In this document: positions 51,784-59,331 of the stretch, in pieces
How the letters are laid out: every line of letters starts with the position of its first letter
Numbering within the stretch: the stretch's first letter is position 1
NCBI RefSeq assembly: GCF_009914755.1
Contig: NC_060932.1
Reading direction: 5' to 3' (one strand)
From: the human T2T-CHM13v2.0 reference genome, Homo sapiens
Length of the DNA stretch: 64,000 nucleotides
Made by a program: the position numbers and the translations under genes
Notes under the pieces: model-generated
Database searches by the model: none
Seen by the model: only the letters and a program-made list of their open reading frames with translations
What the model was told of the DNA's origin: nothing

Positions 51784-51864
51784 ATCTGTAGAAACTTCCA
51801 GTGTGTAGATGCTTCTGTTCTGAATTATGACTGTGATGTTCAGAAAAAGTGTCATGGACATGGG
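51784..51864 (+). CDS. ADAM9: ADAM9 coding exon (~exon 17, 81 nt): end of Cys-rich domain, start of EGF-like domain
   Basis: poly-T-cag|ATC ... CAT GGG|gtaggt. Encodes ICRNFQCVDASVLNYDCDVQKKCHGHG. Confidence 0.95.
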
Positions 51865-52110
51865 GTAGGTAATGTTTTCTTTTGGCTTGTTCCTGAAAGT
51901 AGTGCTAAATAATGAGAAATCTCAGGACTAGATGAGAGTTCCCAGGATTTTCAGATGTTGGGGAATTTAGATTCCTGATAAAATTTTCATTCTTAAACAG
52001 TGTCAGTAAGCTTGTATGAATTTAGTCCTTTCTCTTGGTTTCCATTCTTGAGTTGATGATATAGAGCAACATTCACAATTAACAAAAGTGGTATTTTGAT
52101 TGTTTTGAAG

Positions 52111-52216
52111 GTATGTAATAGCAATAAGAATTGTCACTGTGAAAATGGCTGGGCTCCCCCAAATTGTGAGACTAAAGGATACGGAGGAAGTGTGGACAGT
52201 GGACCTACATACAATG
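52111..52216 (+). CDS. ADAM9: ADAM9 coding exon (~exon 18, 106 nt): EGF-like domain, non-canonical GC donor
   Basis: ttttgaag|GTA TGT ... AAT G|gcaagt. Encodes [35 protein letters not shown]. The GC at 52217-52218 keeps frame with the next exon (G|AA = E); the nearby GT at 52221 does not. Confidence 0.94.
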
Positions 52217-52959
52217 GCAAGTAATATAGAAGAAAATTAGTGTGATCTCCCAGTGGCCCAAGGCATAAATTGGGCATCCTCGTACCTCTCCCTCACTTCC
52301 CACATCAGTTATACATTTAATTATGTTGATTCAGCCTCCTAAATTCCTTGTGACTGTTTCCATTTTTCTCATCCCCATTTATTACTTTCAATTTCTTGCC
52401 TGGACATACATCATAGCCTCTTATGTAGGCTCCCTATTTTTCATCTTGCTTCCTATAATCCATGTTTCACTCTACATTACAGTTTCAGTGTTTTCCTACA
52501 AGAATTCAGTTTTGATTTTGTCAGCGTCTTGCTTTAATTCAGTGCGTCTGCATTGCTATTAGAATGAAGTCCACAACTCCTTAACATGGGTTAAATGCCC
52601 TGCATGACTTGCCCCTAGCTTGCCTTTCAAGCCTCATTTCACTATGTTGAAGACATATTGTAACTTCTTTGATTTCCTGTACTAGGCTACTATCTTTTAC
52701 CTGTGGGCTTTCATACCGTATTATTTTCACATTGTTGGCCCTTGGCTAATTGCTATTTAGGTTTCAGATTATACCTCATTTTCTAAAGAAAGTTTCCCCT
52801 GGCTGCTTAAATCTAAATTATCATTTCCTTCTATTGCTTTTCTAGTACTGTTAGCACTATCTGTTAGCACTAATTGCTATACTAATTACTGATTTGCTTT
52901 TTAAAATTCCCTGATAGACCATGAGCTCCCAGTTTATCGGTATCTTTCTAGTGACATCA

Positions 52960-55900
52960 TATGCTTTTTTTCTCTTGGGTAACTACCAGCTAGAATGACT
53001 AGTCATATAGTAGGTGTATGTTAAGCTTTTAAAGAAACTGCCAAACTGTTTCCCAACGTGGCTATACCAGTTTACATCCTTACTAGCTGTATATGAGAGA
53101 ATTCCCCCAATTTCCCCACATCCTCTCTAACAGTTGCTATTGTCAGTCTTTTTAATTTTTAGCCATTCCAGTAGGTATGTAGTGGTATTTCAGTGTGGTT
53201 TTAATTTGCATTTCTCTAATTACTAATGATGTTGAGCATCTTTTCTTGTACTTATTTGCCATCTACATATCTTCTTTGGTTATGTGTCTGTTTAAATCTT
53301 TTTTCCAGTTTTTAATGGATTGTCTTAATGAGTTTTGAAAGTTCTTTGCATGTCACTGATTCAAGTATTCAAGTTCTTTATGAAATATGTGCCTTGTATA
53401 TATTTTCTCTTAGTCTGCTTACTTTGGGTTTCATTTGTTCTTTTTCTAGTTTCTTAAGGTGGAGGATGAGGTCATCTTTTTTTTTTTTTCTGATACAGAC
53501 ATTTTATTGCTATCAGTTTTCCTTTAATTCAGAAATTTTGACATGTTATACCTCCATGTTCATTCAGTTCTGAATACCTTCTAATATGCTTTTTTTTTCT
53601 TTGACTTACAGGTTATTTAGATATGTGCTATTTCTTTTGAAATACCTGTGGATTTTTTAGTTATCTTAATGTTACTAATTTAAATTTTACTGTAGCAAGA
53701 GAACATATTGTGTATGACTTGAATCCTTTTTTTTTTTTAAACTTGTCTTGTAGCCCAGAATGTGGTTTATCTTAGTAAAAGTTCTGTGTACACTTGAAAA
53801 GAATGCGTATTCTACTATTCTTAGGTGGAATATTCTGTAAGTTATTAGTTCATGTCAGTTAATAGGTAGTCGGATCTTTCATATCCTTACTGATTTTCTG
53901 GTCTACTTACTCTGTCAGTTATTGAGAGGAATATTGAGTTCTTTGGCTATAACTGCCAATTTGCCTATTTCTCTTAATAGTTCTATCAATTTTTGCTTTA
54001 TTTATTATGATGTTCTGTTATTAGGTACATAAACACTTAGAATTATTCTATCCTCTTTGTAAATTGACTCTTTATCCTTATGAAATAGCCTTCTTTTTCC
54101 CTAGTAATATTCTCTGCCCTGCAATGAGATATTGTTAATATAGCTACTCCAGATTCCTATTAATTAGTCAGCATGGAAAATCTTTTCCCATCCTTTTACT
54201 TTTAATTTCTTTATATCATGCTATAGTAATTAGTACATATAGTTGGATCTTGCTTTTTATCTAATCTGCCATTCTCTGTCTTTCAATTAAGTTGTTTCGA
54301 TAATTTATATTTAACTTGACTATTGATGTGTTTATGTTTAAATTTACTGTCTTGATATTTTCCATCAGTCTCCTTGTAGTGATATTGTAACACTTCAGTA
54401 TATTTCCATTTCTCTCATTTTGTGCCATTGTTGTCACATGTTTTACTTCTACTAATGTTATAAATCCCACAATTCATTGTTACTCATTTTGCTTTGAACA
54501 GTTGATTATCTTTCAGAGACTTAATGGTAGAAAAAGTCTTTATATTTACCCATATAATTACCATTTCTGGTGTTTTTCATTTATGTAAATTTGCATTTCA
54601 ATCTGATTTAATTTCTGCTTGAAGGATTTCCTTTTACATTTCTTATAATACCAGTGTGCTAGTGACAAATATTTTTAGCTTTTGTATGTCTGAAAAAGTC
54701 TTTAATTTGCCTTGCTGCTTGAATAATAATTTAACTGGGCAAGGATTTTGGGTGATAGTTTTCCTCCCGTTTTACTTCTAAGGATATTCCTTGTCTTCTG
54801 ACTTGCATTGTTTTTCCTGAAAAATCTGCTATCATCCTTTTCTTTGTATATAATGTCTTCCGTATATGTCTTTTTCTAATCTCTGGTCACTTGTAATGTT
54901 TTGCTCTTTATCTCTGGTTTTTATATTGTGCCTTGGTGTAGTTGGGATTTTTTGAGCTTTTTGGATCTGTGCTTTTATAGTTTTCTTCAAATTTGGAAAA
55001 TTTTTGGCCATCGTTTCTTCGAATATTTTTTTCTGTCTTCCTCTTTCTCCTCATCCAGGTCCTCCAATTTTATGTATATTTGGCTGCTTGGTGTTATTTC
55101 ACATGTCACTGATTGGCTGTTGATTTTTTATTTTTGTTTTTTTTTCTTAAATTTTAATTTAACTTTACTTTTTTTGAGACAGAGTCTTGCTCTATCACCC
55201 AGGCTGGAGTGCAGTGGTATGATCTTGGCTCATGGCAATCTCTGCCTCCGGGGTTCAAGCAATTCTTATGCCTCAGCCTCCTGAGTAGCTGGGACTACAG
55301 GCGTGTGCCACCACGCCTGGCTAACTTTTGTATTTTTAGTAGAGACAGGGTTTTACGCTGTTGGCCAGGCTGGTCTCAAAGTCCTGGCCTCAAATGATTC
55401 ACCCACCTCAGCCTCCCAAAGTTCTGGGATTATAAGTGTGAGCCAGCATGCCTGGCTGGCTGTTGATTTTTAAAAATTATTCCTTATTCTCCATGTTTAA
55501 TTTTGAGTAACTTCTGTTACTCTTCAAGTTTACATTTCTTGTGTGAAGTCTAATTTGCCATTAACTTGATCTAGTGTGTTTTTCATTTTAGACATTGTAG
55601 TTTTTATTTCTGGAAGTTCCATTTGTTTCTTTTATATATCTTTCATGACTCTACATAAGATGCTCAATCTTTACTTTTTTGAACAAATAGAATACAGTTG
55701 TAATAACTGCTAATGTCCTTGTCTACTAATTCTGTCATATGGGTAATTTCTCAGTTTTGATATTTTTCCCTCTTTTATTTTCTGTATTTTTGTAGGCCTT
55801 ATACATTTTTATTAGATGCCAGAAGTTTTAAATCCTACTTTGTGGGTTATTGGATATTTTTGGATTTCTATTGATGAGGTTTGTACTAGTATGTTTGAGT

Positions 55901-57699: not shown

Positions 57700-58110
57700 A
57701 GTTTTATACAACTTTTTACAGAAATTTCTGGTTCTTTTACAAACTTAAAATTATGAATCAGTTTACCACTCCCGTTTATATCTACTATATTGTTTCTCAA
57801 AAGAACACAGAACAGATAAAATACTTAAAGAATTTGTAAAAGTTCTAATGAAACTTAAAATCTAGAAGGCGTAAAAATAAGATTGATAAATTCAACTATA
57901 CAAAAATAATAAACTTTTCCGTGGAGAAAAGCATAGTGCCATAGGTTAAAATGGGGAAAATATTTCCAACTTGTATCATGGACAAAGCTAATCTCTCTAA
58001 TATATAAAGAACTTTTAGAAATTAAGAAGAAAAAAGCAAGAGTCCAGTAGAAAAACAGTCAAAGGACTGAGCAGAAAAAAATAAATAATGTTTCCTTAAG
58101 AAAAAAGTGA

Positions 58111-58410
58111 GGCCAGGCACGGTGGCTCACGCCTGTAATCCCAGCACTTAGGGAGGCCGAGGCGGGCAGATCATGAGGTCAGGAGTTGGAGACCATCCTG
58201 GCCAACATGGTGAAACCTGTCTCTACTAATAATACAAAAAAATTAGCTGGGCGTGGTGGCGCATACCTGTAATCCCAGCTACTCGGGAGGTGGAGGCAGC
58301 AGAATCGCTTGAACCCAGGAGGCAGAGGTTGCAGTGAGTGGAGATCGTGCCATTGCACTAGCCTGGGCAACAGGGTGAGACTCCATCTCGGGAAAAGAAA
58401 AGAAAAAAAA
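58111..58410 (+). mobile_element. AluS inside a sense L1ME remnant (~57860-59110)
   Basis: Full dimer; flanks resemble old L1 ORF2 end and 3' UTR. Confidence 0.9.
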
Positions 58411-59189
58411 ATTATCAACTCATAGTATAAAAAAATGTAAATTAAAATTCTATAAGAGAAAATTTTTCACCTGCCTGGTTGGCAAAAATCCGGAAATTTG
58501 GCTCTGTGGGTGAGGCTATGGGGAATTCTTATATATTGCTTGTAATATTCTTATAAATTGTAACCATTACTATTGAAAGACAATTTGACAATACCTAAAA
58601 GAAATGATGAATGCACTTATTTATTGATACAGCATTTCTGCTTTAGGGAAATTATTCTGTAGTTATTATACCTGCACTAATATGATACAACATATGTGCA
58701 AGGTTATTCATTATAGCAGTTTTTTTGGTAGTAGCAAAAGATTGGAAAAATATAAGTGTTTATCAGTAGGGTACAAGTTAAATAAACTCTAGAACATCTT
58801 CACAATGGAGTTTCATATAGCTGTATGGAAAACGAGGAGGTCCACTATGTACAGATAAGTGGAAAAAAACTGATGCACCAAATGGTATATAAATAGTATG
58901 CTACCTTTTGTGTAAGAAAGTGTTGACAGTAGAAACGTATTTTGTTCTTGATTGTTTGCTCGAAGAAATACTGTAAGGTTACAGAAGAAACTAATAAAAG
59001 TGGTTATTTTTGTGAAGGCAGAAGTAAAGCGGACAGGAATGAACTTTGTGGAAGACTTCTCAATATATTCAATTAATATCAGTTTGATTTTTGAGTAATG
59101 TGAAAATTAATGTAAAGTGTTTATAATCATCTAGTATTTTCTGCCTAGTATGAGTTTGGTGACTGTTGATGTAAAATTCTTCTCTCTAG

Positions 59190-59331
59190 AAATGAATACT
59201 GCATTGAGGGACGGACTTCTGGTCTTCTTCTTCCTAATTGTTCCCCTTATTGTCTGTGCTATTTTTATCTTCATCAAGAGGGATCAACTGTGGAGAAGCT
59301 ACTTCAGAAAGAAGAGATCACAAACATATGA
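59190..59331 (+). CDS. ADAM9: ADAM9 coding exon (~exon 19, 142 nt): transmembrane helix and basic stop-transfer segment
   Basis: tctctctag|AA ATG ... TAT GA|gtactt. Encodes (E)MNTALRDGLLVFFFLIVPLIVCAIFIFIKRDQLWRSYFRKKRSQTY(E). Confidence 0.95.

What the first reader, a model, noticed from the sequence alone, without database searches (positions are those of the whole stretch)
51861..59195. Candidate recursive-splicing switch between membrane and secreted ADAM9
Seen: the 106-nt EGF exon (52111-52216) starts with GTATGT. After ligation to exon 17 (...CATGGG) the junction reads GGG|GTATGT, a canonical GT 5' splice site. The exon's own donor is the non-canonical ATG|GCAAGT. The upstream intron is only 246 bp and the downstream one ~7 kb. 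Joining exon 17 to exon 19 gives GGG AAA TGA (G-K-stop), removing most of the EGF domain, the TM helix and the tail. Established: a secreted ADAM9 splice form lacking TM and tail is reported, and exons that rebuild a 5' site (RS-exons) can be re-spliced, which the exon junction complex represses. Inference: the short intron is removed first, and the rebuilt GT site then competes with the weak GC donor, so the apparent exon skipping may be two-step and EJC-sensitive. I do not know of this mechanism being described for ADAM9.
Basis: partly seen in the sequence, partly recalled or inferred. Interest (0 to 1): 0.8.

Follow-up and report, generated by a model that had tools for sequence, protein, structure and literature searches.

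The report
ADAM9 exon 18: putative recursive-splicing exon
Exon 18 of human ADAM9 begins with a sequence that rebuilds a splice donor once the short upstream intron is removed, which puts it in a known and fairly common class of exons, but nothing yet shows that this controls production of secreted ADAM9.

Summary
The sequence observation is correct in every detail. Exon 18 (52111-52216) starts GTATGT, the spliced 17/18 junction reads GGG|GTATGT, the exon's own donor is ATG|GCAAGT (a GC-AG intron), and the flanking introns are 246 and 6973 nt. Joining exon 17 to exon 19 gives Gly-Lys-stop.

By U1 pairing energy the rebuilt site (-8.1 kcal/mol) beats the GC donor (-6.0). It equals the validated KPNA1 recursive site.

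This makes exon 18 a putative RS-exon in the sense of Blazquez et al. 2018. That class covers 3.6% of human exons, and 93.8% of them are constitutive.

Several points limit the interpretation:
- Val-Cys codons force four of the six bases.
- The well-studied ADAM9-S (LSLKFHAPF tail) comes from a different event, cassette exon 45290-45418.
- The exon-18-skipped mRNA is an NMD candidate. With primers that flank exon 18, it was negligible in ovarian samples.
- No paper held both "ADAM9" and "recursive splicing", and ADAM9 is absent from the readable lariat tables.

Verdict: a plausible, testable new member of a known kind. A physiological switch is not shown.

The parts
51784..51864 (+). ADAM9 exon 17 (81 nt, 27 codons). 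Its last three bases, GGG, form the exonic half of the rebuilt 5' splice site. An EJC would sit about 20-24 nt upstream of its 3' end.
   Evidence: The EJC position comes from established knowledge and PMC6224609; it was not measured here.
51862..51870 (+). Natural donor of exon 17, GGG|GTAGGT. It is the strongest U1 match of the 9 annotated donors in the window.
   Evidence: duplex dG -11.6 kcal/mol. The other eight donors range from -3.9 to -11.4.
51865..52110 (+). Intron 17, 246 nt, GT-AG. A candidate branch point TTAAC has its A at 52082, 28 nt from the acceptor.
52091..52110 (+). Acceptor of exon 18. The polypyrimidine tract is interrupted by purines and there is an A at -3.
   Evidence: pyrimidine fraction 0.61 at -20..-3, third lowest of 9 acceptors. 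The longest pyrimidine run is 4. It is the only one of the 9 with a purine at -3.
52108..52116 (+). Juxtaposed 3'/5' splice-site motif AAG|GTATGT in the unspliced RNA. After intron 17 is removed, the junction reads GGG|GTATGT (the RS-5'ss).
   Evidence: U1 duplex dG is -8.4 unspliced and -8.1 spliced. 7 of 9 positions pair in the canonical register (spliced junction, one a G:U wobble).
52111..52216 (+). Exon 18, 106 nt, encoding V655-N689 plus 1 nt (most of the EGF-like domain). Its length is not a multiple of 3, so skipping shifts the frame.
   Evidence: Numbering is from the TM 699-718 legend.
52214..52222 (+). Exon 18's own donor, ATG|GCAAGT. It is a GC donor with consensus bases at -1 and at +3 to +6.
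   Evidence: dG -6.0, with 6 of 9 positions paired. The frame argument shows this donor is the one used.
52217..59189 (+). Intron 18, 6973 nt, GC-AG. The only yTnAy motif in its last 60 nt has its A at 59169, 20 nt from the acceptor.
59190..59331 (+). Exon 19 (transmembrane helix). In the 17-19 join the stop TGA lies at 59193-59195, 136 nt upstream of the exon 19/20 junction.
45290..45418 (+). Alternative cassette exon between exons 15 and 16. Spliced after exon 15 it reads ...KKCATG-LSLKFHAPF-stop, which is the tail of the published ADAM9-S. This is a separate route to a truncated, TM-less ADAM9.
   Evidence: one peptide match in six frames, at 45291; acceptor ...ctttgctcaccag|G, donor GAA|gtaagt, and the translation. 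The peptide comes from reviews. The exon is in the hub's RefSeq table.

Best explanation
Exon 18 of ADAM9 is an ordinary, normally included coding exon that also qualifies by sequence as a putative 'proximal recursive' (RS-) exon.

A phase-0 intron lies directly before a Val-Cys codon pair, the first Cys of the EGF-like domain. The exon therefore starts GT.TG., and the wobble bases complete GTATGT.

Inferred course of events:
1. The 246-nt intron 17 is removed before the acceptor of exon 19, 7 kb downstream, has even been transcribed.
2. This creates GGG|GTATGT, which then competes with the weaker GC donor 106 nt downstream for the same acceptor.
3. The EJC deposited on exon 17 normally masks the rebuilt site, so exon 18 is included and membrane ADAM9 is made.
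4. When masking fails, exon 18 leaves together with intron 18. The 17-19 mRNA encodes a 655-residue TM-less protein (ADAM9s) but is an NMD candidate and is normally scarce.

Shown here: the sequence anatomy, the relative U1 complementarity, the frame consequences, and the separate origin of the LSLKFHAPF form. Inferred: the order of intron removal, EJC masking, and any actual use of the rebuilt site.
For: - Anatomy.
- U1 duplex energy: rebuilt site -8.1, GC donor -6.0. The rebuilt site is stronger than 6 of the 9 annotated donors in the window.
- It equals the experimentally validated KPNA1 RS-5'ss (-8.1) and exceeds aCADM2 (-5.3). Motifs were taken from Blazquez Table S5.
- Only 43 of 4015 GT sites in the window do as well.
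- Blazquez et al. [quoted passage not shown] They also report that part-spliced reporters skip the exon, and that a GC-to-GT change at an exon start creates EJC sensitivity.
- An isoform that differs in size between exons 16 and 19 is recognised as ADAM9s. The primers map to 46516-46533 and 59240-59259, giving 296 bp with exon 18 and 190 bp without it by my count.
Against: - There is no direct evidence for ADAM9. 0 papers hold 'ADAM9' with 'recursive splicing'. ADAM9 is absent from the 287 RS-lariats of Table S6 and from the 3 supplement files of Hoppe 2023.
- MaxEntScan, which defines the class (threshold 5.52), could not be run.
[quoted passage not shown] A weak acceptor plus a GC donor also predicts plain one-step skipping.
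- ADAM9s was absent or negligible in all 17 ovarian samples and 2 cell lines.
- 93.8% of putative RS-exons are constitutive, and sensitive and insensitive ones have similar RS-5'ss scores.
- Val-Cys coding fixes four of the six bases, so the motif needs no splicing function to exist.
Confidence: 0.55

Rival explanations
1. Plain one-step exon skipping. Exon 18 is poorly defined because of its purine-interrupted acceptor and GC donor, and it is occasionally missed. The strong exon 17 donor then pairs directly with the exon 19 acceptor. The GTATGT start is a by-product of Val-Cys codons and is never used as a donor.
For: - The acceptor pyrimidine fraction is 0.61, with A at -3, the only purine at that position among 9 acceptors.
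- The GC donor has dG -6.0, while the exon 17 donor is the best in the window at -11.6.
- Coding fixes four of the six bases.
- No ADAM9 RS-lariat appears in the readable tables.
- Most putative RS-exons are constitutive.
Against: - A 246-nt intron can be recognised by intron definition regardless of the exon's donor. Intron 17 is therefore likely removed early, which leaves only the rebuilt site or the GC donor to pair with exon 19 (inference).
- The rebuilt site pairs with U1 as well as the validated KPNA1 site does.
- Both wobble bases are in the most donor-like state, ranking 1st of 8.
Confidence: 0.3
2. Recursive re-splicing of exon 18 is a regulated, physiologically used switch that sets the ratio of membrane-bound to secreted ADAM9 protein, tuned by EJC occupancy or by intron 17 kinetics.
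For: - The architecture fits.
- A secreted ADAM9s distinguished by primers that flank exon 18 is used in the literature.
Against: - The skipped mRNA is an NMD candidate.
- A 2020 review lists only one coding RefSeq mRNA plus three NR_ records.
- ADAM9s was negligible in all samples.
- The functionally studied ADAM9-S arises from cassette exon 45290-45418.
- Nothing seen here points to regulation.
Confidence: 0.1

Closest known systems
Annotated RS-exons repressed by the exon junction complex (Blazquez et al. 2018, Mol Cell, PMC6224609), called 'proximal recursive exons' by Hoppe et al. 2023 (PMC10156609)
   Same: An annotated coding exon whose first bases, joined to the preceding exon, rebuild a 5' splice site. 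Its own donor is weaker, and the upstream intron is likely spliced first. The predicted outcome is exon loss identical to skipping.
   Different: Membership rests on sequence alone. The MaxEntScan score was not computed. EJC dependence, PRPF8 binding and lariats are untested for ADAM9. The acceptor is weak rather than strong. The competing donor is a GC site, a combination I did not see discussed in the sections I read.
Cryptic RS-exons and ratchet points in long introns (Sibley et al. 2015 as cited in PMC6224609; Drosophila ratchet points, PMC8605326, search listing and abstract only)
   Same: A juxtaposed acceptor/donor motif: AAG|GTATGT in the unspliced RNA, U1 dG -8.4.
   Different: The ADAM9 motif heads a conserved coding exon, not a cryptic intronic element. 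The upstream intron is 246 nt, not tens of kilobases.
GC-AG introns associated with alternative splicing (recalled from the general literature, e.g. Thanaraj and Clark 2001; not read here)
   Same: A GC donor with otherwise consensus bases at -1 and at +3 to +6.
   Different: This is an ordinary example. The only special point is the stronger GT site rebuilt 106 nt upstream.
ADAM9-S with the LSLKFHAPF tail (Mazzocca 2005 and Fry and Toker 2010, as described in reviews PMC7590139 and PMC13173819; the originals are not held)
   Same: It also yields an ADAM9 without the TM helix and cytoplasmic tail.
   Different: It is made by including cassette exon 45290-45418 after exon 15. The product is predicted to be 575 residues and lacks the whole EGF-like domain and part of the Cys-rich domain. 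It is not made by skipping exon 18.

Membership tests
Putative RS-exon (Blazquez et al. 2018) | An annotated internal exon whose junction with the preceding exon reconstitutes a GT 5' splice site | tested here: met
   The junction reads GGG|GTATGT.
Putative RS-exon (Blazquez et al. 2018) | RS-5'ss MaxEntScan score of at least 5.52, the score reached by 90% of canonical human 5' splice sites | not testable with these tools
   MaxEntScan and its tables are not on the script machine. A literature search for the 9-mer found no paper with it. As a proxy, U1 duplex dG is -8.1, equal to the validated KPNA1 RS-5'ss and better than 6 of 9 annotated donors in the window.
EJC-sensitive RS-exon (Blazquez et al. 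2018) | Own 5' splice site weaker than the rebuilt one | tested here: met
   The GC donor has dG -6.0 with 6 of 9 positions paired. The rebuilt site has -8.1 with 7 of 9.
EJC-sensitive RS-exon (Blazquez et al. 2018) | Upstream intron spliced before the downstream intron | not testable with these tools
   This is inferred only from the lengths, 246 versus 6973 nt. It needs paired-end or long-read nascent RNA data.
EJC-sensitive RS-exon (Blazquez et al. 2018) | Tendency to a stronger 3' splice site | tested here: not met
   The pyrimidine fraction is 0.61, third lowest of 9, the longest run is 4, and there is an A at -3. The paper describes a trend, not a strict criterion.
EJC-sensitive RS-exon (Blazquez et al. 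2018) | Skipping rises on eIF4A3, RBM8A or MAGOH knockdown but not on UPF1 knockdown | not testable with these tools
   No RNA-seq data are available here. The full-text search for ADAM9 with EIF4A3 and 'exon skipping' returned 6 papers; by their titles and abstract openings none concerns this exon, and I opened none.
Demonstrated recursive splicing | A lariat whose 5' end is the first base of the exon | tested here: inconclusive
   ADAM9 has 0 occurrences in the 3 readable supplement files of PMC6224609, which include Table S6 with 287 RS-lariats. It also has 0 in the 3 files of PMC10156609. These lists are sparse, so absence is weak evidence.
GC-AG intron | GC at +1/+2, a terminal AG, and an otherwise near-consensus donor | tested here: met
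   ATG|GCAAGT ... tctctag|A. The reading frame requires this donor.
Published ADAM9-S (LSLKFHAPF tail) | A C-terminal unique peptide LSLKFHAPF | tested here: not met
   The exon 17-19 join ends Gly-Lys-stop. The peptide is encoded at 45291 in the cassette exon.
NMD candidate transcript (50-55 nt rule, established knowledge) | A stop codon more than about 50-55 nt upstream of a downstream exon-exon junction | tested here: met
   The stop at 59193-59195 is 136 nt upstream of the exon 19/20 junction, and further junctions follow.

The most novel reading that the evidence does not exclude
ADAM9 exon 18 is a tuned RS-exon in which a GC donor is deliberately paired with a rebuilt GT site. On this reading, EJC loading on exon 17, or the speed of intron 17 removal, sets how much ADAM9 pre-mRNA becomes membrane protease and how much becomes ADAM9s or NMD substrate. 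That would be an EJC-gated dosage or secretion control of a sheddase.

One twist: AAG|GTATGT is already a good U1 site in the unspliced RNA. The site could therefore also be used before intron 17 is removed, escaping EJC control.
Probability: 0.1. Interest if true: 0.55.

Novelty: new member of a known kind. Interest (0 to 1): 0.3.

Why it matters
If the rebuilt donor is used, ADAM9 would be a medically relevant example of EJC-dependent exon inclusion. ADAM9 is a cancer target and the cone-rod dystrophy 9 gene. Lower EJC activity would then reduce membrane ADAM9 and raise a truncated or NMD-prone transcript.

A more immediate point is that 'secreted ADAM9' covers two different splicing events:
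- inclusion of cassette exon 45290-45418, giving the LSLKFHAPF tail;
- skipping of exon 18, giving a Gly-Lys end.

Assays and antibodies should distinguish the two. As a case of recursive splicing itself, it adds one candidate to a class of several thousand.

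Tried and rejected
1. MaxEntScan and SpliceAI are not installed. I used U1 duplex energies instead; these are only a proxy.
2. A literature search for the two 9-mers found nothing for the junction 9-mer and 2 unrelated hits for the GC donor 9-mer. 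One search was a formatting error.
3. RNA structure. In long part-spliced contexts the rebuilt site is predicted to be almost fully paired (unpaired probability 0.01, against 0.78 for the GC donor).
   - The partner changes with context: exon 18 CCCC in the short context, intron 18 52375-52478 in the long ones.
   - The intron 18 partner is not special. It ranks 677 of 3194 windows for the 70-nt junction segment and 191 of 3194 for the exon 18 part.
   - I therefore reject this as evidence for or against use of the site.
4. Original papers by Fry and Toker 2010 are not held, by DOI or by PMC id. I did not try to look up Hotoda 2002 or Mazzocca 2005, for which the reference lists seen give no PMC id. 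Which event Hotoda's ADAM9s represents is inferred from another laboratory's primers and from my recollection that database isoform 2 has 655 residues.
5. Supplements of Wang et al. 2014 (Genome Biol) were closed. Two supplementary PDFs of Blazquez et al. are unreadable. The list of the 6,837 putative RS-exons is not among the three readable files, so ADAM9 may already be listed where I could not see it.
Conservation of Val-Cys, of the wobble bases and of the GC donor in paralogues and orthologues is therefore untested.
8. Searches for ADAM9 with 'exon 18', with EIF4A3 and 'exon skipping', and with 'nonsense-mediated decay' and 'exon skipping' gave nothing on this exon. I judged this from the listings plus passages of two papers.

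Full report
**1. The observation**

Reading the window directly confirms every sequence statement.
- Exon 17 (51784-51864) ends CATGGG and is followed by gtaggt.
- Intron 17 is 246 nt.
- Exon 18 (52111-52216, 106 nt) starts GTATGT behind the acceptor ...ttgattgttttgaag.
- Its donor is ATG|gcaagt, so the 6973-nt intron 18 is a GC-AG intron.
- Exon 19 starts AAATGA.

The annotated frame runs open through all nine exons of the window and through the transmembrane helix only if the GC donor is used. The GC donor is therefore real.

Joining exon 17 to exon 19 gives GGG AAA TGA. Numbering uses TM 699-718 and EGF-like 644-698 from a review figure legend. On that basis the product ends G654-K655-stop, is 655 residues long, and keeps 11 of 55 EGF-like residues (my count).

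**2. How good is the rebuilt donor?**

MaxEntScan is not available, so I used pairing to the 5' end of U1 snRNA (a recalled motif) computed with ViennaRNA.

| Site | U1 duplex dG (kcal/mol) | Positions paired |
|---|---|---|
| Spliced junction GGG\|GTATGT | -8.1 | 7 of 9 |
| Exon 18 GC donor | -6.0 | 6 of 9 |
| Exon 17 donor | -11.6 | 8 of 9 (two G:U) |
| Perfect consensus | -14.0 | 9 of 9 |
| Unspliced AAG\|GTATGT | -8.4 | 8 of 9 |
| KPNA1 RS-5'ss (validated) | -8.1 | 8 of 9 |
| aCADM2 RS-5'ss (validated) | -5.3 | 6 of 9 (one G:U) |

- Three of the nine annotated donors in the window are stronger than the rebuilt site, and six are weaker.
- Among 4015 plus-strand GT dinucleotides in the window, 43 (1.07%) do as well.
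- The KPNA1 and aCADM2 motifs came from Table S5 of Blazquez et al..
- The unspliced RNA already carries a juxtaposed acceptor/donor motif.

**3. Chance and coding constraint**

Blazquez et al. define a putative RS-exon as one whose upstream exon-exon junction scores at least 5.52 in MaxEntScan. They report the following:
- 3.6% of human exons (6,837) qualify.
- 21.7% of genes contain at least one.
- 93.8% of them are constitutive.

One such exon in a 22-exon gene is therefore not surprising.

The first two codons of exon 18 are Val-Cys, the first cysteine of the EGF-like domain. That fixes GT.TG. Only the two wobble bases are free. The native hexamer is the best U1 match of the eight synonymous encodings, which is a 1-in-8 observation.

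Conservation in orthologues and paralogues could not be examined with the tools available.

**4. Fit to the known mechanism**

According to the sections I read:
- EJC-sensitive RS-exons have the upstream intron spliced first and a weaker own 5' splice site.
- They show a trend to a stronger 3' splice site.
- The strength of the RS-5'ss relative to the downstream 5' splice site decides the outcome.
- Part-spliced reporters skip the exon.
- UPF1 knockdown does not mimic EJC knockdown.

ADAM9 exon 18 meets the weaker-donor criterion. It plausibly meets the order criterion, given 246 nt against 6973 nt, but that is inference.

It does not show a strong acceptor. The pyrimidine fraction is 0.61, third lowest of nine. 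The longest run is 4. It is the only one of the nine acceptors with a purine at -3.

A weak acceptor plus a GC donor also predicts plain one-step skipping, which is the main rival.

**5. Which secreted ADAM9?**

Reviews describe ADAM9-S as carrying the unique tail LSLKFHAPF and lacking the EGF-like, TM and cytoplasmic domains. They attribute it inconsistently to 'excising exon 12' or to sequence 'encoded by exon 12'.

In the window that peptide occurs once in six frames, at 45291. It lies inside the RefSeq alternative exon 45290-45418, between exons 15 and 16. That exon has good splice sites (...ctttgctcaccag|G and GAA|gtaagt). Spliced after exon 15 it reads ...KKCATG-LSLKFHAPF-stop, a predicted product of 575 residues.

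The form studied by Mazzocca 2005 and Fry and Toker 2010 is thus a cassette-exon inclusion product, not the exon-18 skip. I know those papers only through reviews; the Fry and Toker paper is not held and I did not try to fetch Mazzocca 2005.

A second usage exists. Ueno et al. (PMC5797829) amplify 'ADAM9m' and 'ADAM9s' with one primer pair (Table S1). I map the primers to exon 16 (46516-46533) and exon 19 (59240-59259). The two forms must therefore differ between those exons. By my count the products are 296 bp with exon 18 and 190 bp without it.

This fits the exon-18 skip. It also fits my recollection, not tested here, that database isoform 2 from Hotoda 2002 has 655 residues.

That laboratory saw no or negligible ADAM9s in 14 carcinomas and 3 control ovarian tissues. 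It saw none in 2 cell lines.

**6. Fate of the skipped mRNA**

The stop at 59193-59195 lies 136 nt upstream of the exon 19/20 junction, so the transcript is an NMD candidate.
- The RefSeq policy paper cites NM_001005845.1 as an NMD candidate whose protein was kept for publication support.
- Another paper lists that accession for ADAM9.
- A 2020 review lists only NM_003816.3 plus three NR_ records.

I could not establish from a call which event that accession represents.

**7. Direct evidence for recursive splicing in ADAM9**

There is none.
- No paper holds ADAM9 together with 'recursive splicing'.
- ADAM9 does not occur in the three readable supplements of Blazquez et al.: Table S5 reporters, Table S6 with 287 RS-lariats, and Table S7 ENCODE accessions.
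- It does not occur in the three supplements of Hoppe et al. 2023.
- The list of the 6,837 putative RS-exons is not among the three readable files; two supplementary PDFs could not be read.

**8. RNA structure**

Folding part-spliced RNA predicted the rebuilt site to be almost fully paired in long contexts. However, the partner changes with context, and the intron 18 partner is unexceptional against 3194 background windows (ranks 677 and 191). I draw no conclusion from it.

**9. Verdict**

It is a direct application of a published, widespread mechanism to one more exon.

My estimates:
- About 0.55 that the rebuilt site is functional when EJC protection fails and contributes to a minor, mostly unproductive isoform.
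- About 0.3 that skipping is purely one-step.
- About 0.1 that this is a regulated membrane/secreted switch.

The title's link to 'secreted ADAM9' needs correcting, because two different truncating events exist.

A lariat starting at 52111 would therefore not by itself prove that intron 17 was removed first.

Noticed in passing
window 45290-45418: The LSLKFHAPF tail of the published ADAM9-S is encoded by this cassette exon, between exons 15 and 16 in NM_003816.3 numbering. Two reviews attribute it to 'exon 12', one as excision and one as inclusion, and this does not match the genome.
   Followed up: yes
window 46480 and 46553 (alternative ends of exon 16 in other transcripts): Neither alternative end is followed by GT or GC. 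After 46480 the sequence is tggatt, and after 46553 it is ggtaat, one base before the normal donor. They look like transcript ends or alignment shifts, not true alternative donors.
   Followed up: partly
window 60402 (start of exon 20): Exon 20 also begins with GT, giving the junction TGA|GTCAGA. Its U1 pairing is poor (dG -2.5), so it is not a credible recursive site.
   Followed up: yes
window 51835-52150 versus 52375-52478: In the MFE fold, the exon 17 end and exon 18 start pair with intron 18 through an extended imperfect helix. This is not beyond background (rank 677 of 3194 windows).
   Followed up: yes
window 51764-51783: The acceptor of exon 17 has a 14-base pyrimidine run, mostly T. 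It is the strongest polypyrimidine tract of the nine acceptors and contrasts with the weak tract of exon 18.
   Followed up: no
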